From Phycisphaerae bacterium (GTDB lineage: Bacteria; Planctomycetota; Phycisphaerae; UBA1845), in the NCBI GenBank assembly GCA_963666835.2, contig CAXXGO010000006.1, forward strand, positions 1,728,001 through 1,792,000: 64,000 bases of DNA. Direction: 5' to 3'. The translations under genes and the position numbers were made by a program. Below are positions 22,252 to 31,950 of the stretch, piece by piece; the stretch's first letter is position 1; each line of letters starts with the position of its first letter. Below the pieces are notes generated by a model, which saw only the letters and a program-made list of their open reading frames with translations, searched no databases and was not told the origin of the DNA.

Positions 22252-22936
22252 CAAGCACATCCTCCGTACCGAAATTGGCGAAGTGACAGATCACAACAGC
22301 CAATATGATCGACTCGTACATACCCTTAACACAATAGGGTATTTACCTCAATTAGCAAGTCGCCGCTCTCAAACCGCCGTAAGGCTGGACTAGGGGCCGC
22401 GACGTTGCGGGAAGCGGTTCGCTCTTCTGACGTTGCTGCGTTGGTTTCGCGAAAGTGCCTTTCTTGCGACACTAGACACTTTCACGCAAGACGAACCACG
22501 AAACCGGTCTCTTTGCGTGCAAGAGTGAGCGGTCCGGGGCATGCTCTTCCATCCTGACGCGACGGACTTCGGTTATCGAGGGACTTTCGGGCTCCCCGCC
22601 CGGTTGCCGAATGTGGTTGAGGCCCGTCCCAATGGGGAAAGGCTGCGAACGTCACTGGGGATTGACCGCCTGTTGAAGGGCGGTCCCGGTCGGGCGGCCG
22701 GGCAGCTCGCTTGTGCGGTAGCTGTAATTATGCGAGCTAAGGAGACACTCCGATCCCCCTGCAGCGAGCGTAACGCCGGACCTGTGAGGCGGTTTATCGT
22801 GACCCATCCGTTGCTCCACGCAGCTCCGCCGTTCGTCGATGATTATAGACAGGGGTCCATGAAAACAGCTTAGAAGCCGTATTGGTGGGGTCCCTGGTGG
22901 GCCAAGAACCCTCTTTTGCGTCCGAGCGAGCCTGTA

Positions 22937-24316
22937 ATGAACGTTCCTGAAAACCATGATGAGTTGGATTTCTCGGTGGAGCAACTTGGTCCACGAAAAG
23001 TCAAGTCACCGTACAGGCTGTGCCGGTACGTATCGGACGACGAGCGAACGCTCCACGACACGTCGGTGGAGTCGTGGCGCGATCCGGACCGAGCCTCTCG
23101 TCGAGAGTCATCTTTGGGCTTCGAGTTGGCCGGCCCGCGGGAGCACATCTACTTCGATGCGACCAAAACTCGCTGTGCGGTGGTGACCTGCGGGGGATTA
23201 TGCCCTGGTCTCAACGACGTGATCCGGGCGGTTGTTCTCCAGCTTTATCACCAATACGGCGTCAAGATCATCTACGGCTTCCGTTTCGGTTTCGAAGGGC
23301 TCATCCCTCGATACGGACACGAGCCGCTCATGCTCGGGCCTTCCACGGTGACCGACATTCACCGGCACGGCGGCTCGATCCTGGCATCGTCGCGCGGGCC
23401 GCAATCGCCGGAGGAGATCGTCGACGCCCTGGAGCGCCTGAACATCCAGGTGCTCTTTTGCATCGGGGGAGACGGGACGTTTCGAGGCTCCTTGGCAATA
23501 CACGATGAGGTCCGCCGACGCAATCTCAAGATCGGGATCGTGGGAGTCCCTAAGACTATCGACAACGACATCCCGTTTACCTCCCGGACTTTCGGGTTCG
23601 ACACGGCATGCGCCATCGCGGCCAATGCCATCATCGGGGCACACGCCGAAGCGACGGGGGCGTTCAACGGAATCGGCCTGCTTAAGCTCATGGGCCGGCA
23701 CGCCGGGTTCATTGCCGCTCACTCCGTATTGGCGAGCCGCGACGCCAACTTCGTGCTGGTCCCCGAGGTGGATTTCGAACTGGGCGGAGACAGTGGGTTG
23801 CTGACCCACCTTCTGCGCCGGGTGCAGACGCGTCAACATGCGGTAGTGGTAGTCGCCGAGGGGGCGGGGCAACACCTCTTCGAAGGGGATTCCGGGGCGA
23901 CGGATCCATCCGGAAACGTGCGACTTAAGGACATCGGAGTGTTGTTGCGGGATCGAATCACGCAATATATGAAAATGGTCGACACTCCCTGCACGCTCAA
24001 GTACATTGACCCGAGTTATCTGATCCGGTCGGCCCCGGCGACGGCGAGCGATGCCCTGTTTGCCGGAACGCTGGGGCAGATGGCGGCCCATGCGGCCATG
24101 GCGGGAAAGACGGGTATGTTCGTCGGGTTTTGGAACAACCACTTCACGCACGTCCCGATGGCCGCGGCGGTGGCGCGCACCAAGAGGCTCGACCCGCAGG
24201 GCAACTTCTGGCACAGCGTCGTTGAGTGTACCGGGCAGCCGCACAACATGACCAATCAGGTGGAGTGTTCGGAGAGTATGGAAGAGGATTTACTGGCGGA
24301 GTCGTTGTTGGCCTGA
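22937..24316 (+). CDS. pfkA: ATP-dependent 6-phosphofructokinase
   Basis: TCGGLCPGLN, IGGDGT (Gly indicates ATP type), PKTIDND, LMGR and KYIDPSY motifs. Confidence 0.93.
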   Translation: MNVPENHDELDFSVEQLGPRKVKSPYRLCRYVSDDERTLHDTSVESWRDPDRASRRESSLGFELAGPREHIYFDATKTRCAVVTCGGLCPGLNDVIRAVVLQLYHQYGVKIIYGFRFGFEGLIPRYGHEPLMLGPSTVTDIHRHGGSILASSRGPQSPEEIVDALERLNIQVLFCIGGDGTFRGSLAIHDEVRRRNLKIGIVGVPKTIDNDIPFTSRTFGFDTACAIAANAIIGAHAEATGAFNGIGLLKLMGRHAGFIAAHSVLASRDANFVLVPEVDFELGGDSGLLTHLLRRVQTRQHAVVVVAEGAGQHLFEGDSGATDPSGNVRLKDIGVLLRDRITQYMKMVDTPCTLKYIDPSYLIRSAPATASDALFAGTLGQMAAHAAMAGKTGMFVGFWNNHFTHVPMAAAVARTKRLDPQGNFWHSVVECTGQPHNMTNQVECSESMEEDLLAESLLA

Positions 24317-24456
24317 CGAGGTCGCCATTTCGTTGATTGCAGGTGCCTCCATCGTGGAACACTGTCCGGCGGAGGCGGGTTCTCTTTAGATAAACGGACA
24401 AGTGCCGGGTAGTACGGCGACGTACGCCGGACAAACCGCAACGGGAGTATTCTGTC

Positions 24457-26103
24457 ATGGAAATGTCTGAACTGGTTTGCGATTACGGGCTGGAGCATCT
24501 CGGCCTGACGAATCTGGGGGCGATTTACTGGAATAGATCGACGCCAGCTCTCTACGAGAACGCGATCCGGCAGTCCGAAGCGCAGATAGCGCATCTCGGG
24601 CCGCTGGTCGTGCGTATGGGGCAGCACACCGGACGTGCGGCCAAGGACAAATACATCGTTGACGAGCCGAGCTCGACGAACGACGTCTGGTGGGGCAAGA
24701 TCAACGTGAAGTACTCCGCGGAACGGTTCGATGTTCTGCACCGGCGAATGTGCTCTTACCTGCGCGGCAAGAAGGTGTTCGTGCAAGACTGCTATGCGGG
24801 CGCCGACGAGCAGTTCCGCCTCCCCGTTCGGATTGTCAACGAGTTCGCCTGGCATAACCTCTTTGCTCGGAATATGTTCATCTCCCAGCCGCGGGAGCGG
24901 GCGTCGTTTCGCAACTTCCGACCGGAGTTCTCCGTCCTGCAGTGCCCGAGCTTCCATGCCGATCCTGATGAGGACGACACCCGGAGCGGGACGTTTGTTG
25001 CCGTCAGTATTGCGAAGAAGCTGATTCTCATCGGCGGAACGGCGTACGGCGGCGAAATCAAGAAGTCTGTCTTCTCCGTATTGAATTACCTCCTGCCCCA
25101 ACGCGGGATTCTGTCAATGCACTGCTCCGCCAACGTCGGCCGGAAGGACCCGGACGACGTGGCCGTCTTCTTCGGTCTCTCCGGAACCGGGAAGACCACG
25201 CTTTCCGCTGATCCCAATCGTCTTTTGATCGGTGACGACGAACACGGCTGGTCTGATGAGGGTATCTTCAACTTCGAAGGCGGTTGCTACGCCAAGGTCA
25301 TCAACTTGTCACGAGAGTCGGAGCCGGAGATCTTTGATTGTACGCGCCGCTTCGGGACGATTCTGGAGAACGTCGCGATGGACCCGGCGCAGCGCATGGT
25401 CGATCTGAACGACGCCTCCATTACCGAGAACACGCGGGCCTCATATCCGCTTTCACACATTCCCAACATAGTGCGTTCCGGCAAGGCCGGGCACCCGCGC
25501 AATGTAGTCATGTTGACAGCCGACGCGTTTGGGGTCCTGCCGCCGATCGCCAAGCTTACGCCCGAACAGGCGATGTACCATTTCATCAGCGGTTACACTG
25601 CGAAGGTCGCGGGAACCGAAGCGGGTATCACTGAGCCTACGGCGACGTTCAGTGCGTGCTTTGGGGCGCCGTTTATGATCCGGCATCCCTCGGCCTACGC
25701 CGAGCTGCTGGCGGCTAAGCTCGTTAAACACAAGGCCGATTGCTGGTTGGTCAACACCGGGTGGACCGGCGGGCCGTACGGAGTTGGATCCCGGATGAGC
25801 ATCGAGGTGACCCGGGCTCTGCTCAACGCCGCTTTGGACGGGGCCTTGAGCAACGTGAAGATGGAAGTCGATCCGTTCTTCGGCTTCTCCGTTCCGCAAG
25901 AGGCGCCGGGGGTGCCGTCGGGTGTGCTGAATCCCCGTAATACTTGGGCCGATCCGCACGCCTATGACGAGCAGGCGAAGAAGCTGGCCGGGATGTTCCG
26001 GAAGAACTTCGAGCAATACAAGAACGATACTTCGGCCGAAGTCGCGGCCGCGGGCCCGTCGGTAGAGGGCAAAGCGGCCCAGCCGGCAGCCGCGGCGTAC
26101 TGA
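24457..26103 (+). CDS. pckA: Phosphoenolpyruvate carboxykinase (ATP)
   Basis: YGGEIKKS, MHCSAN, FGLSGTGKTTLS, IGDDEHGW and FNFEGGCYAK motifs. Confidence 0.98.
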   Translation: MEMSELVCDYGLEHLGLTNLGAIYWNRSTPALYENAIRQSEAQIAHLGPLVVRMGQHTGRAAKDKYIVDEPSSTNDVWWGKINVKYSAERFDVLHRRMCSYLRGKKVFVQDCYAGADEQFRLPVRIVNEFAWHNLFARNMFISQPRERASFRNFRPEFSVLQCPSFHADPDEDDTRSGTFVAVSIAKKLILIGGTAYGGEIKKSVFSVLNYLLPQRGILSMHCSANVGRKDPDDVAVFFGLSGTGKTTLSADPNRLLIGDDEHGWSDEGIFNFEGGCYAKVINLSRESEPEIFDCTRRFGTILENVAMDPAQRMVDLNDASITENTRASYPLSHIPNIVRSGKAGHPRNVVMLTADAFGVLPPIAKLTPEQAMYHFISGYTAKVAGTEAGITEPTATFSACFGAPFMIRHPSAYAELLAAKLVKHKADCWLVNTGWTGGPYGVGSRMSIEVTRALLNAALDGALSNVKMEVDPFFGFSVPQEAPGVPSGVLNPRNTWADPHAYDEQAKKLAGMFRKNFEQYKNDTSAEVAAAGPSVEGKAAQPAAAAY

Positions 26104-26265
26104 GGGAGTTTTGCTTCGGGGTAGGCGGCTTGGCCGGCAGAACCGCATAGAAAAAGACCGCCCGGGAGTGATGTTCACAACACCGCTACCGGGCGGTTCC
26201 ACGTTTGCAGACAGCCCGCGAGCCGGTCGAGGTCCCCGGAAGATGACACTCTGGTGACATCTCCT

Positions 26266-26836
26266 GTAGGGCACGATCGAGGCACGAGACCTGCCAGAAG
26301 AAGGCGAGCGTCGCGCGAAGACCTCGTAGGGCATGGTCGAGGTACGAGACCTGCCATCAAGGCCGCAATGGTCCGAGCCGCACGAAGAGGTGCCACCCAC
26401 GTGTCTCGCGGAACCAACCCGTCAGGGCGGCAGCTCTGCCCAGCCCGCGGCGTCAGCCGCGGGTTCGCGTCGTACGTCAACCCCAGCCCCGCCAGGGGCG
26501 GCACTTTGATACTCGAAGGGGGGCCCGACCTTCGCCAACGTGCTTCCGTTATGATGGTGAATCACGGGTGTCCGATCCAAACGTCGATGTTCTCTGCCGC
26601 CCGCAAGGGGCTTGGTGCGAAGCGGCCGCACGGTTTCCCCAGGCTTACGCCGTGGGGCTACAGGACCTGTCGCCCCAAGGGGCTTGGCTTGCGACACGAT
26701 CGAGGCACGAGACCTGCCAGAAGAAGGCGGGCGTCGCGCGAAGACCTCGTAGGGCACGGTCGAGGTACGAGACCTGCCACAATGGCGCCCGTCACGCGAG
26801 GACCACGGCAGGTCTCGTGCCTCGACCGTGCCCTAC
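26266..26836. repeat. Cluster of GTAG-GGCA REPs and a ~365-bp composite repeat
   Basis: REP copies at 26266, 26326, 26749 (+) and 26807 (-). Segment 26326-26690 is similar along its length to 31346-31710. Confidence 0.9.
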
Positions 26837-26865
26837 AAAAGGGGACAATCACATGTCAGGACGCG

Positions 26866-28233
26866 CTATTGACACTTGCAGCAGGATGGTCCGGACGGTT
26901 GCAGATCATCATAGGGACGGCGGAGCTTCTTCACTGCCGACTCGTAGCGGGCCCGGAAGGCGTGGGGGGTCAGCCCGGCCTCGGCGGCCAGGCCGGCCAA
27001 CATCGCCGGTGACTCGAAATCACGATCTTCGAGCCGGATCATATACGCTCGGGCGACGCTGTAGGAGTAACTATTGATGTCCACGAGGCGGATCCGAGCG
27101 CGATTCGTCTCCGGGGCGATCATGTCGTCGAAAGGTACCGGGACGAGGTTGTTGTCCTTGAGCGATACCATCACGCCCGCAGGAAGATCCCGCGTCGACT
27201 CCAACAGAAGCCGCACCCCGCCGTGTCCCAAATCCCGCGTGTACGCCATGTCGAAAGTTGTCGGCGGGGCGCAACGCATTTCGTACCCGAGAGTGTAGCT
27301 GACGATGGTCTCCCTCTTGCCTCGCTCACTGAATCGCTGCTGGAGTTCGTCCTTCAGAATCCGCGCCAGGGGCACCTCCGAGAGCCGCGGGTGACCGGCC
27401 GCATCCACCGGGACGTCGCGACCGAGCAACCGGGAGAGTTCCTCCTGGTCTCCGAGCTTGTACGCCAGCCCTTCTGCGAAGACGACGACTCCGTCATCGC
27501 GGCCCATCGCCCGCCGCTTGAGCATGGCCGCCTCGATAACGTCGACGATCTCCTTGATCGTAGTGGAACCGGGAAACTCCTCGGGAATCAGGGTGAGTGT
27601 CGCCCCCGCTGATTTGCCAATCCCCAGCGCAAGATGACCCGTGTTTCGTCCCATCGTCTCGACGATGTACCACCGCTTGGTAGTACGCGAGTCCTCCATC
27701 AGATTGGCCAAGATGTTCGAGCCGATATGTCGGGCGGTTGTGAACCCGAAGGTCGGCAATTCGCCCGGCAGCGGGAGGTCGTTGTCGATGGTCTTGGGCA
27801 CCAGCACGACGCGGATCTTGCCCTGGAATTGCTCCGCAATGAAACGCGAACTTAGCGCTGTGTCATCTCCTCCGATCGCCAGAAGGTGCGTGACTCCAAG
27901 GGCCTGGAGCCGCTGACAGACTCGGGCGACCTTTTGAGCGTCCGGCTCGACGACCGTCGAGGTGCGGAGCTTCTCCTTGTTGAGCAGGCTGGTCCGCGCA
28001 GTGCGCAGGATGGAGCCACCAGTGAAGTGGATCCTCCCCACGTCCCTGATGGTCAGTTCATGGACGTGATGCTCGGGGTCGAAGTCCTCGTCCGCCAAGT
28101 ACCGGAAACCTTCGTACATTCCCAGGACCCGAAGGCCGTTGTTGATGGCTTCGATCGTCGCTGCGCCTATAACCCCGTTAATCCCCGGGGCCGGTCCGCC
28201 ACCAACGATAATCCCCATCGTTGCGTGCATCAT
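26866..28233 (-). CDS. pfp: Pyrophosphate-dependent phosphofructokinase
   Basis: GGGPAPGIN, IGGDDT (Asp indicates PPi type), PKTIDNDL, TMGR and GYEMRC motifs. Confidence 0.9.
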   Translation of the reverse strand: MMHATMGIIVGGGPAPGINGVIGAATIEAINNGLRVLGMYEGFRYLADEDFDPEHHVHELTIRDVGRIHFTGGSILRTARTSLLNKEKLRTSTVVEPDAQKVARVCQRLQALGVTHLLAIGGDDTALSSRFIAEQFQGKIRVVLVPKTIDNDLPLPGELPTFGFTTARHIGSNILANLMEDSRTTKRWYIVETMGRNTGHLALGIGKSAGATLTLIPEEFPGSTTIKEIVDVIEAAMLKRRAMGRDDGVVVFAEGLAYKLGDQEELSRLLGRDVPVDAAGHPRLSEVPLARILKDELQQRFSERGKRETIVSYTLGYEMRCAPPTTFDMAYTRDLGHGGVRLLLESTRDLPAGVMVSLKDNNLVPVPFDDMIAPETNRARIRLVDINSYSYSVARAYMIRLEDRDFESPAMLAGLAAEAGLTPHAFRARYESAVKKLRRPYDDLQPSGPSCCKCQ

Positions 28234-28446
28234 GCTCAGTAGTCCTCCCGAAGACCCGCCTACACGTATCCACTATCGGCATCTGCTCGCGACAGCGAAA
28301 CCTCAGATTCGATCAGGGAATTCTGAGTTTGTTGGTGCCGCCGCAACGTAACCGGCCTTTTGCCTCGTATCCTCCGAGAGTTTATCGGCCCTTTGCGCGG
28401 GAAACGGGAATGCGTCTCGAGATGGAGCCCGCGATGGTCTCGGATC

Positions 28447-28480
28447 AAAAAGCGTGCCCGGACCGCCGTTGGTCCGGACG
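28447..28480 (-). terminator. Putative intrinsic terminator
   Basis: Stem CCGGACC 28458-28464 / GGTCCGG 28471-28477, followed on the minus strand by U5 (A5 at 28447-28451). Confidence 0.55.
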
Positions 28481-28885
28481 GGGTGGGCTCCGCCTCTGCG
28501 AGGAAGGGTCTCGAAGTCTACCGCGCCGTCCGGCCGCCGGACCCCCTCACCACGTGCGTTGCCTTTGTGGTGAGGAGCCGGCCTTAGACGCGGTGAGAAT
28601 CCGAGTTGAGCGACATCGCCCACCCCGAACCGGTCAATCCCAACGCGACACGAGGCGTTGCCAGGATGGGCTCCCCGGGATACCCGATCCCGGCAACGTC
28701 GCACGCTCGCCAGCATCCCTGTCTTGTCCACCAGGGCGGCCTAATTCGTCGACCTGGTGTACACGGAACGCGTCAGTCGCCTCTCGGGTGACCCCAACCG
28801 CCACCCCGGAGTCAGCGGCGGTCATCCTGGTTTGCCGCAGCTCGGACTCCGTAAGGGGAGGCCTCCATCGATTGACAACACGGCG
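28447..28885 (-). ncRNA. Candidate large structured ncRNA or leader, family unassigned
   Basis: About ten mutually compatible perfect helices plus a 7-bp pseudoknot, no credible ORF, an upstream sigma70-like promoter and a downstream hairpin with U-tract. Confidence 0.65.
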
Positions 28886-28886
28886 G

Positions 28887-28914
28887 ATTGTACAGTGGAG
28901 AGATGAAAGATCAA
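28887..28914 (-). promoter_or_regulatory. Putative sigma70 promoter
   Basis: Minus strand TTGATC (28914-28909), 16-nt spacer, TACAAT (28892-28887), in a locally AT-rich patch. Confidence 0.5.
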
Positions 28915-28926
28915 AGTCAACTTAAT

Positions 28927-28950
28927 AGGCTAACCTATACAGGTTAGCCT
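28927..28950. promoter_or_regulatory. Perfect inverted repeat, possible operator
   Basis: AGGCTAACCT-atac-AGGTTAGCCT. Confidence 0.45.
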
Positions 28951-29161
28951 GTGTAGGTGGTCTTCTTCCGATGGGGTAGACGGGATTGCTGCCGGTCGTC
29001 TGGAGGCATGTGGCTCGTTGCCTTGCTCGTGGCGGGGGGCGACCTACAATCGCCGCGTGCCGTGCAAGTTCTACTTGCTTCGTTGCGATGCTCAGACGCG
29101 CGATTCACGTCGTGCATCCGGGGTGGGAACCAGATTGACACTGAAAGCTCGGAGGCAGCTT

Positions 29162-30928
29162 ATGTTCGTTCGATTGCCGGCCGGTCTCGGCCTTCTACTG
29201 CTCGCTCTTGGCCCGTTGCCGGCGACACTCGCAGCAGACCGAGTTGCAGCTCCGGGGTGGCTGACCAAGTCGCAATGGTACCACGTGTTGGTGCCCCGCT
29301 TCTCCGACGGAGAGCCCCTCAACGATCCGACCGGCGTTCTACCGTGGCCTTCCCTGGCTGCTAAGGATTCCGGAAAGACGCCTGCGCCTGAGGCGGCGAA
29401 AGGAGAGAAGCGATTCGGTGGCGATCTTCAAGGCCTTCAGAATCGCCTCGGGTATCTCAAGGAACTGGGTGTGGATGTTTTGTACCTCTCGCCGGTGTTC
29501 ACCGCTCCGTCCGATCTGAAGTATGACTCGGCGGACCTGCGGCACGTGGACGGGGCCTTGGCGGTTGCGAACCAACCGGGGGATGTGGGCAAGGAGACCG
29601 CGGATCCGGCAACCTGGCAGTTTACGCCGAGTGACCGCCTCTTTCTGGGTTTCATCAAGCGAGCCCACGCGCAAGGTCTTCGGGTAGTCTTGGAGATCAC
29701 AGGTACGTCGGCGAGTCGAGAATCCTGGATGTGGCGCGACGTTGTCGCCAAGGGCGAGCGATCGGAATGCTCGAGCTGGTTCGACGTAGCCGATTGGGGT
29801 CCCCCGGTTCGCGCGCAAGTGGATGGAGGGCCTTCCCACGACGGCACGGTGCCGTTTAAGCGCAACGCGACGTCACTCGCGCCAGGTGTGGAGAAGTACC
29901 TCCTGGCCGTAACGCGGCGTTGGATGGACCCGGACGGGGACGGCAATCCTGTCGATGGGGTCGACGGGTGGGTGGTTCGCAACGCGTATCGGCTGGGGCC
30001 GGAGACTCTCGCCAGGTGGCAGAAGCTCGTGAAGAAGGTCAACCCGGCCGCGGTTCTGGTGGGCGACTATCGCGGCATGTCCGGAGCTTTCGGCACTTTC
30101 GGCACGAACCAACCCTTCGATGCGGTCGTGCAGGAGGAAACCGGGGCGGCTCTTCGCCGGTTCTTTTGCGAGGAGGCGAAGAAGGGCTACACGTCCACGA
30201 ACCTGCTTGTTGATTTGGACGTTCTGTTGAAGAGCCGGCGTGCGGAGGCGGGCCCGGTGGTGATCGATTCGATCGGCGGAACGAATGTCCCGCGGCTGTG
30301 GTCGGTCATTGAAGGCGGGGCGAGGCCGACAGACGGTAAGCCCGCTGCTTCGGTTCTTAGCCGATTCCGGTTGGCGATGGTCATGCACCAACTCTGTCTG
30401 CCGATGCCGCTGACCTACTACGGCGACGAGATCGGTCTGCCGGGCGAAGCGGACGGGCGGGATCCGATGTGGTGGCAGGGGAGTCCCGCAGACGGCAGCA
30501 ACGCCTATCGCCGGGACTTAGCCGCGCTTGCGCTGCAGCTTAACAGCCTCCGCGAGCGATTCGCGCCGCTGGCGTCGGGTTCGTTTCGCAAGGTCCTTGC
30601 CGACGAGAAGCAACGGGTGCTGGCGTTTGCACGGGCTTTACCGGGTGATGAGGTCATTGTCGTAATCAACTTCGGAGATACTCCGCAGCGCGTAAAAGTG
30701 CCAACAGGGTGTCCCGGACAACTCATCGGGGTGGTTACGCCGGAGCTGACTCCCGGCCCGCCGCACCCGTTCTTCAAGAACCGCGCGGCTGCCGAACCAG
30801 CCTCGGCCATTCCGCAGTTGCGGTTAGGCGGTAATCAGCAGTATGCCGACGAATCCGGTAATCTCTCCGTGTCCCTTAAGCCCCAGACTATTCGGCTATT
30901 GCTATTGAAAGGCAAGGGCGGATCATGA
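29162..30928 (+). CDS. Secreted GH13 alpha-amylase/neopullulanase-like protein with degenerate active site
   Basis: Signal peptide; WYHVLVPRFSDG, GGDLQGL..RLGYLKELGVDVLYLSPVF, WMDPDGDG...DGVDGW and YYGDEIGL. Confidence 0.88.
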   Translation: MFVRLPAGLGLLLLALGPLPATLAADRVAAPGWLTKSQWYHVLVPRFSDGEPLNDPTGVLPWPSLAAKDSGKTPAPEAAKGEKRFGGDLQGLQNRLGYLKELGVDVLYLSPVFTAPSDLKYDSADLRHVDGALAVANQPGDVGKETADPATWQFTPSDRLFLGFIKRAHAQGLRVVLEITGTSASRESWMWRDVVAKGERSECSSWFDVADWGPPVRAQVDGGPSHDGTVPFKRNATSLAPGVEKYLLAVTRRWMDPDGDGNPVDGVDGWVVRNAYRLGPETLARWQKLVKKVNPAAVLVGDYRGMSGAFGTFGTNQPFDAVVQEETGAALRRFFCEEAKKGYTSTNLLVDLDVLLKSRRAEAGPVVIDSIGGTNVPRLWSVIEGGARPTDGKPAASVLSRFRLAMVMHQLCLPMPLTYYGDEIGLPGEADGRDPMWWQGSPADGSNAYRRDLAALALQLNSLRERFAPLASGSFRKVLADEKQRVLAFARALPGDEVIVVINFGDTPQRVKVPTGCPGQLIGVVTPELTPGPPHPFFKNRAAAEPASAIPQLRLGGNQQYADESGNLSVSLKPQTIRLLLLKGKGGS

Positions 30929-31260: not shown

Positions 31261-31345
31261 GATCCGAGCGAGTAGGGCCCGCTCCGCGGACCGCATTTGC
31301 TCCACGGGTCAGCAATTGCTCCATGACACCCGGGTCTTACCATTT

Positions 31346-31950
31346 GTAGGGCATGGTCGAGGCACGAGACCTGCCACCAAGGCCGCAGTGGCCCGGCTCG
31401 GACGAAGATGTGACACGCGCGTGGCTTGCGGTATTAGCCCGCCAGGGCGACAGCTCCGCCTAGCCCGTGGCGTGAGCCGCGGGATCGAGTCGCGCATCAG
31501 CCCTAGCCCCGCCAGGGGCGGCACTTCGATAACCGCATGGGTTCCGGCCGTCGCCAACGTGTTCCCCGCATGATGTTGAATCACGGGTGTCCGATCCAGA
31601 CCTCGACGCGTTCTACCGCCCGCAAGGGGCTTGGCGCGAAGCGACCGCACGGTCCCCCAGGCTTACGCCATGGGGCTTCAGGACCTGTCGCCCCAAGGGG
31701 CTTGCCCGACGGCACGGCCGAGGCACGAAACCCCGCCGAGAGGTGTGGCATGGGCAAGCGTAGCTCTCACGCAAAGCACTTTGCCGTACGCCTGGAGACT
31801 GCGCGCGTAAGGCACGGACGCTTGCAGCTTGCCCGTGGATGCGCGTCCCCCGGGTCAACAAGTTGACCTATGACACGCGATTGTCATCCGCCGCAATGGC
31901 GCGCGTTGGGCGAAGACCACGGCAGGTCTCGTTCCTCGACCATGCCCTAC
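31346..31950. repeat. Second copy of the composite repeat plus an inverted REP
   Basis: REP at 31346 (+), shared internal sequence with 26326-26690, and REP at 31921-31950 (-). Confidence 0.85.

What the first reader, a model, noticed from the sequence alone, without database searches (positions are those of the whole stretch)
28447..28885. Unassigned ~430-nt two-domain pseudoknotted RNA with its own promoter and terminator
Seen (plus coordinates, RNA on minus). Domain 1 is closed by 28870-28876/28633-28639 (7 bp) and 28823-28830/28661-28668 (8 bp). The second helix encloses hairpins 28797-28802/28817-28822, GTCACC-CGAGA-GGCGAC, 28729-28735/28753-28759 and 28675-28681/28687-28693; hairpin 28641-28646/28655-28660 lies between the two closing helices. 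Loop 28807-28813 is perfectly complementary to 28845-28851, forming a 7-bp pseudoknot across the second helix. Domain 2 is closed by a 10-bp stem 28479-28488/28618-28627 with inner helices 28520-28525/28589-28594, 28545-28553/28567-28575 and 28528-28533/28537-28542. TTGATC-16-TACAAT lies upstream and a hairpin plus U5 downstream. It is single copy in the window, unlike the REPs, and has no credible ORF. I see no hallmark of RNase P, tmRNA, SRP, T-box or common riboswitches. Inference: a novel large ncRNA, or a complex attenuator for pfp, whose start is ~215 nt past the terminator. The GTCCGG/CCGGAC segment could pair with the terminator as an antiterminator.
Basis: partly seen in the sequence, partly recalled or inferred. 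Interest (0 to 1): 0.85.

Follow-up and report, generated by a model that had tools for sequence, protein, structure and literature searches.

The report
Orphan structured RNA behind regulated promoter
A planctomycete-group bacterium carries what looks like a free-standing, heavily folded non-coding RNA gene of about 430 bases behind a switchable, possibly metal-sensing promoter; it matches no catalogued RNA, but no relative and no transcript could be found, so it remains a candidate.

Summary
The stretch is unusually helix-rich: 72 nested bp in perfect helices, reached by 2 of 500 shuffles and 0 of 1,768 single-copy windows outside called genes; domain 2 folds at z -4.4. Rfam has no match, and RNase P, tmRNA, SRP and 6S lie elsewhere in this Phycisphaerae genome. 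The domain-1 pseudoknot fold is unproven; energy models prefer a rival fold. The pfp-attenuator idea fails: pfp has its own family-wide promoter element and no shared neighbourhood. New: two tandem 14-bp palindromic operators sit just upstream of the -35. They are unique in the genome, resemble DtxR/IdeR boxes, and recur in the same layout in two relatives, once beside a LuxR gene. No homologue was found in 100 family, 200 class and 400 phylum genomes or in phage, plasmid, viral and metagenome collections, whereas the 6S control was found in 5 of 5. Verdict: probably a real, regulated, lineage-restricted structured RNA; covariation and expression are untested. The scan's look-ups showed no look-alike on other DNA.

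The parts
28939..28952 (.). Operator-like palindrome 1 (ACAGG-CTAA-CCTGT)
   Evidence: the tandem pair is unique in the genome
28925..28938 (.). Operator-like palindrome 2 (ATAGG-TTAG-CCTAT), DtxR/IdeR-box-like; its 10-bp core ends 8 nt before GACTT, as in G270 and G235
   Evidence: the only 12-nt exact run shared with the published DtxR 19-mer in the genome; rank 10 genome-wide with a matrix built from other sites; layout in relatives
28909..28914 (-). -35 hexamer TTGATC
28887..28892 (-). -10 hexamer TACAAT; start of transcription inferred near 28880
   Evidence: the start is inferred
28447..28881 (-). Candidate stand-alone non-coding RNA, about 435 nt
28633..28876 (-). Domain 1, closed by 28870-76/28633-39; internal fold ambiguous
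28807..28851 (-). 28841-50 can alternatively pair 10 bp with 28596-605 in domain 2
28479..28627 (-). Domain 2: 10-bp closing stem, long irregular stem (28588-605 with 28510-526) and 9-bp apical stem; the best supported part
   Evidence: pair probabilities 0.97-0.99 for the three helices tested; z -4.4, reached by 2 of 222 single-copy control windows
28447..28479 (-). Intrinsic-terminator-like hairpin and U5; a second strain has 4 more bases in its loop, stem strands unchanged
28273..28280 (-). pfp's own conserved promoter element (GCCGATAG), 47 nt before the ATG; not part of the RNA
26866..28233 (-). PFK-family gene (pfp), downstream neighbour
   Evidence: PF00365
29162..30928 (+). Alpha-amylase-family gene, divergent neighbour, with its own TTGCTC/TACAAT at 29023-29050

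Best explanation
A free-standing non-coding RNA gene. A sigma-70-type promoter is switched by a dimeric regulator bound to two adjacent 14-bp palindromes upstream of the -35, an activator-type position. The regulator is most likely the genome's DtxR/IdeR-family Fe/Mn sensor, otherwise a LuxR-type HTH protein. The promoter yields a ~435-nt transcript that ends at the hairpin-U5. The RNA folds into two compact domains and acts in trans through its shape (binding or sequestering a protein or metal, as a scaffold or sponge), not by reading into pfp and not mainly by pairing with mRNAs. Shown: helices, helix excess, promoter/operator/terminator sequences, lack of coding signal, independence from pfp. 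Inferred: transcription, the regulator, the domain-1 topology and the mode of action.
For: Helix excess. Only sigma-70-like site in 2.5 kb. The tandem operator is found once in 6 Mb. The box-N4-box-N8-GACTT layout recurs in G270 and, with a weaker first box, G235, from other genera. Related palindromes precede the DtxR genes of G000 and G265. Tandem boxes upstream of the promoter mark IdeR activation (passages of PMC9132128, and bioRxiv 10.64898/2026.07.13.738276). A 4-base insertion in a second strain shifts the 142- and 234-codon frames and leaves the terminator stem strands intact. mRNA-target scores are no better than shuffled RNAs, which favours a shape-based role by elimination only.
Against: No homologue in any search, whereas the 6S control was found in 5 of 5; large functional RNAs are usually conserved at family level. 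The one substitution seen breaks a G-C pair of the 28753-59/28729-35 helix, and the variant's MFE refolds without the local terminator hairpin. The DtxR reading is weak on several tests. The match is 12 of 19 to the full consensus, a level 1,122 sites reach. No clear box lies before four ferritin-family genes or the second feoB. The single-box pattern matched 8 of 101 genomes while its reversed control matched about 55 by my count of rows. The G235 copy sits behind a LuxR-family gene. My own stricter promoter-terminator filter listed 29 of 2,328 region-strands and did not list this one.
Confidence: 0.45

Rival explanations
1. Non-functional or decayed sequence: a GC-rich relic of a mobile element or hairpin repeats, inserted between two unrelated genes and folding by ancestry or chance. 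The operator and promoter would be left over from a lost gene or serve the amylase.
For: No homologue. pfp was not found beside the amylase in any of 29 amylase loci with 1.5-kb flanks. The single SNP breaks a pair.
Against: No second copy or partial relative in the genome. Helix score above all 1,768 single-copy control windows. Promoter, operators and terminator bracket the folded part exactly.
Confidence: 0.25
2. Metal-regulated base-pairing small RNA (RyhB-like iron-sparing role) using C-rich single strands such as 28852-62 or 28498-509 against ribosome-binding sites.
For: DtxR-like operators; anti-Shine-Dalgarno-like C-rich stretches; top predicted targets include motB-like and cysteine-synthase-like starts at -26 and -25 kcal/mol (names recognised from sequence, not tested). 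RyhB logic from a passage of PMC11672702.
Against: 5 of 25 shuffled RNAs reach the same top scores. Boxes lie upstream of, not over, the promoter, so the sign would be opposite to iron-sparing RNAs. The RNA is long and heavily paired.
Confidence: 0.15
3. Riboswitch or attenuator controlling read-through into pfp.
For: Same strand, 214 nt upstream; three segments can pair with the terminator.
Against: Those folds cost 9-14 kcal/mol. pfp has its own conserved promoter element (26 of 30, control 1 of 27). No such leader upstream of pfp in relatives.
Confidence: 0.07
4. Structured mRNA for a small protein (63 codons at 28825-28634, or a type I toxin-like peptide).
For: The 63-codon frame spans most of domain 1 and is untouched by the 4-base insertion.
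Against: Codon score -0.058; no Pfam family; Atlas hits of 0.76 only; no hydrophobic peptide in the three frames (by eye).
Confidence: 0.05

Closest known systems
raiA motif RNA (ModT; Rfam RF03072)
   Same: Stand-alone ~200-250-nt domain closed by P1, with a 7-bp pseudoknot at its core and nested multi-stem junctions (passages of PMC11751092); function unknown.
   Different: No Rfam hit although RF03072 is in release 15. In raiA the 5' half of pk-1 is the P3 loop and the 3' half a junction; here the order is reversed. No UGAAA turn near the 5' end. No planctomycete name was found in the raiA supplements. There is also an extra 150-nt domain.
ROOL, GOLLD, OLE (large ornate RNAs)
   Same: Large, multi-domain, helix-rich, non-coding, no known function (passages of PMC12286853).
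   Different: No Rfam hit, shorter, no phage or tRNA-island context in the 13 kb examined, and no covariation available.
6S RNA
   Same: Domain 2 is a long irregular rod with a closing stem and an asymmetric bubble.
   Different: The genome's 6S lies elsewhere and is conserved in 5 of 5 relatives; the 6S model does not score this locus at E <= 10.
Fur/DtxR-regulated small RNAs (RyhB type) and IdeR-activated bfrA/bfrB promoters
   Same: Metal-repressor-type operator in the promoter; tandem boxes upstream of the promoter as at bfrA/bfrB.
   Different: Far larger and more paired than RyhB-type RNAs; no significant mRNA targets; the regulator is not proven.
RNase P RNA
   Same: 28841-50 and 28596-605 can pair as a 10-bp helix whose strands resemble the P4 strands seen in the RF00010 alignment.
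   Different: No bulged U and no GAAAG context; the helix has probability 0 in the ensemble; the genuine RNase P is elsewhere.

Membership tests
any Rfam 15 family | covariance-model score at the gathering threshold | tested here: not met
   window at gathering: tRNA only; region at E <= 10: three chance hits of 15-17 bits
raiA motif | RF03072 match and the ~51 conserved positions | tested here: not met
   by-eye comparison with the sequence shown in the PMC10861870 supplement gives only short scattered resemblances
raiA motif | pk-1 from the P3 loop to the P5/P6 junction | tested here: not met
RNase P / tmRNA / SRP / 6S | fills the single housekeeping slot and matches the model | tested here: not met
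   found elsewhere at 285, 162.9, 53 and 36.4 bits
large ornate orphan ncRNA (as a kind) | structure far above chance | tested here: met
large ornate orphan ncRNA (as a kind) | covariation and conserved unpaired bases across homologues | tested here: inconclusive
   no homologue found; one SNP in one strain breaks a pair
large ornate orphan ncRNA (as a kind) | expressed as a discrete RNA | not testable with these tools
   only DNA-type contigs were available to lay
riboswitch / attenuator | conserved position 5' of the same gene class and no separate downstream promoter | tested here: not met
DtxR/IdeR regulon | DtxR-family regulator in the genome | tested here: met
   PF01325 + PF02742 + FeoA, upstream of feoB
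DtxR/IdeR regulon | operator matching the regulator's own sites | tested here: inconclusive
   for; against: (control)
base-pairing sRNA | accessible seed with better-than-chance mRNA targets | tested here: not met
   5 of 25 shuffles as good; gene starts were predicted crudely
REP / MITE | multiple copies, terminal inverted repeats | tested here: not met

The most novel reading that the evidence does not exclude
A new class of large pseudoknotted RNA that a DtxR/IdeR-type sensor switches on when iron or manganese is plentiful, in the way IdeR switches on ferritin genes, and that itself binds or buffers the metal or a metal-handling protein: an RNA counterpart of a storage protein.
Probability: 0.1. 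Interest if true: 0.9.

Novelty: new member of a known kind. Interest (0 to 1): 0.5.

Why it matters
Large structured bacterial RNAs without a known job (raiA, ROOL, GOLLD, OLE) are prime candidates for new RNA chemistry. My searches turned up none described from Phycisphaerae (paper searches; scan look-ups). This candidate has something those families mostly lack, a readable operator, so its inducing signal can be tested directly. Until a homologue or a transcript is found it is a single-genome candidate.

Tried and rejected
Homologue searches, all without a credible hit. blastn: 200 class genomes, 18 with 20-45-nt hits; 100 family genomes, 24 with short hits, best E 1e-3; 400 phylum genomes, 6 hits of at most 39 nt. 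Sequence-only model of domain 1: 38 of 100 family genomes gave weak hits; the best (E 1e-5) is the antisense of a chaperonin gene; 5 close genomes gave noise. Structure model of domain 2: 0 of 100, 0 of 150, 0 of 5 with lax filters, nothing below E 1.6 in 63 neighbour loci. Both models rest on one sequence, so distant relatives can be missed. Phages and plasmids: E >= 1. Metagenome pattern: 0. pfp-anchored loci: 2 and 4, all 57-75% identical, none with the RNA. Of 82 weak-hit loci given, only those over 2.9 kb were tested (number not printed); 4 lacked a long covering frame, and the only clearly intergenic one was read and lacks the rest. No RNA holder listed among public runs. Permuted tmRNA, RNase P paralogue, 6S, HDV-like, glmS, HEARO/omegaRNA and CsrB-type sponge were considered from recalled motifs. 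The first three are excluded; the others had no Rfam support. Palindrome-driven dimerisation: 11 palindromes of at least 6 nt against 9.2 expected, and a 10-mer in half of the shuffles. The RNA downstream of the G270 tandem box is unrelated and not specially folded. Supplements were searched only for PMC10861870; bioRxiv supplements could not be seen and might hold unlisted RNA motifs.

Full report
Setting. The window is C6:1728001-1792000 of a 6.0-Mb, 92% complete genome. Its pfp relatives are titled Phycisphaerae. The finding lies in a 928-nt gap between a PFK-family gene (26866-28233, minus) and a divergent alpha-amylase-family gene (start taken at 29162).

Observation. All 11 helices given by coordinates are perfect Watson-Crick pairings. 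TTGATC-16-TACAAT is the only sigma-70-like site in 2.5 kb; the terminator-like hairpin is one of two such sites, with 1.5 expected. The stretch is single copy. The five overlapping frames tested score negative on a genome-trained codon model, which is weak for short genes. The 63-codon frame has no Pfam family and only 0.76 Atlas hits. Folding is beyond chance: z -2.64 overall, -2.4 for domain 1, -4.4 for domain 2; 2 of 222 scored single-copy windows, of 279, reached -4.4. A fold-independent count, the best nested set of perfect helices of at least 6 bp, gives 72 bp against 46.9 +/- 7.6 (2 of 500 shuffles; 0 of 1,768 single-copy windows outside called genes, of 2,882 cut). On that count the genome's RNase P, tmRNA and 6S are reached by 3, 15 and 13 of 40 shuffles, but their MFE z-scores (-7.4, -4.4, -3.6) are stronger than this RNA's -2.3.

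Fold. Domain 1 is not. ViennaRNA prefers another fold, in which the knot helix is the base of a nested hairpin and a 12-bp helix 28687-98/28656-67 forms: -218.3 against -200.4 plus -10.7 before a pseudoknot penalty. The knot's 5' strand can also pair 10 bp with domain 2. Only covariation or probing can decide.

Known families. Rfam 15 gives nothing. raiA and HEARO are in that release (passage of PMC11701678). ARAGORN found no tmRNA, which suggested a permuted tmRNA, but a standard tmRNA, RNase P, small SRP and 6S all lie elsewhere. raiA is the closest in outline, a P1-closed domain with a 7-bp pseudoknot, but the knot's order is reversed and the conserved turns are missing (passages of PMC10861870 and PMC11751092; supplement hits).

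Relatives. None was found. blastn over 200 class, 100 family and 400 phylum genomes (overlapping samples) gave only short chance-level hits. Single-sequence models gave 0 of 100, 0 of 150 and 0 of 5 for domain 2, and for domain 1 a best hit antisense to a chaperonin gene. Phage, plasmid, viral and metagenome searches were blank or chance. The same blastn found the genome's 6S in 5 of 5 relatives at E 4e-9 or better, so this is not a family-wide conserved RNA. No other genome of its genus was among those searched. A second strain, one sample of another study, differs here by G>T at 28734, which breaks a G-C pair next to a loop, and by 4 bases added in the terminator loop, which shift the 142- and 234-codon frames. 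That variant's MFE loses the local terminator hairpin, showing how flat the landscape is.

Not an attenuator. pfp relatives occur in 92 of 100 family genomes. In the loci fetched the upstream neighbours vary and none resembles the RNA. A YCGATAR element lies within 260 nt of the start in 26 of 30 loci (1 of 27 control windows) and 47 nt before the ATG here. Antiterminator folds cost 9-14 kcal/mol. pfp was not found beside the amylase in 29 amylase loci.

The promoter. Two adjacent 14-bp palindromes (28952-28939, 28938-28925) end 10 nt before the -35. AGGYTARCCT occurs 5 times in the genome, twice here, and the tandem only here. One other family genome of 100 has the strict tandem (G270). A blast with that locus found G235, and both repeat the layout box-N4-box-N8-GACTT; the N8-GACTT part was not in the pattern that found G270. 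The boxes resemble the DtxR consensus (recalled, then seen in a passage of PMC7762939): box 2 holds the genome's only 12-nt exact run of it, though only 12 of 19 overall, a level 1,122 sites reach. The genome has a DtxR-family gene before feoB, with a related palindrome in its promoter. G265 has one before its DtxR gene. A matrix from five sites that exclude this promoter ranks box 2 tenth genome-wide. In mycobacteria tandem boxes upstream of the promoter mark activation of iron-storage genes (passages). Against: no clear box before four ferritin-family genes or the second feoB; a single-box pattern rang in 8 of 101 genomes, far fewer than its reversed control; the G235 copy follows a LuxR-family gene and precedes an Lnt-N membrane gene. 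I put DtxR-type control at about 45%, LuxR-type at 25% and other or none at 30% (judgement).

Mechanism. Predicted mRNA targets were no better than 5 of 25 shuffled RNAs, and palindromes are not enriched. By elimination the best reading is a regulated, stand-alone RNA that acts through its fold (0.45). Rivals are a relic or chance fold (0.25), a pairing sRNA (0.15), an attenuator (0.07) and a small-protein mRNA (0.05).

Novelty. Paper searches and scan look-ups showed no description of this RNA. It would be a new family of a known kind, the orphan structured bacterial RNAs. With one genome and no transcript the interest is moderate, 0.5. Papers were seen as passages or listings only; none was read whole.

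Noticed in passing
L065:1501-1683 (G000 C6:1879357): A 6S RNA that scores below Rfam's cut-off (36.4 vs 46.4 bits) but is conserved in 5 of 5 relatives; the Rfam model under-calls Phycisphaerae 6S.
   Followed up: partly
L056:1501-1855: A standard tmRNA (162.9 bits) that ARAGORN missed.
   Followed up: partly
window 28273-28280 and L066-L097: Conserved YCGATAR promoter element upstream of pfp across the family, often about 50 nt before the start: a possible lineage-specific -10 or sigma site.
   Followed up: partly
L100:1499-1570 and L327:1480-1545 (minus): A shared promoter type (two 14-bp-spaced boxes, then GCGACTTG), once behind a solo LuxR-family gene and once before at least 340 nt without a credible ORF at a contig end.
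   Followed up: partly
G000 C6:1344408-1359224 (L098, L132): dtxR-feoA fusion and feoB followed by several secreted-protein and prepilin-like ORFs on the same strand; possibly one metal-regulated unit.
   Followed up: no
L263:1480-1800: G056: TTGACC-17-TATAAT with a perfect TTAGG-N4-CCTAA box over the start site, before a short His-rich ORF.
   Followed up: no
window 22916-26103: A second PFK-like gene and a PEP-carboxykinase-like gene face pfp, forming a small central-carbon cluster (names recognised from sequence, not tested).
   Followed up: no
window 26100-26860 and 31300-31860: Non-coding stretches whose shadow ORFs repeat the same phrases, consistent with the REP-like repeats noted earlier for this genome.
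   Followed up: no
G000 C6:1320413-1320508: tRNA-Sec is present.
   Followed up: no
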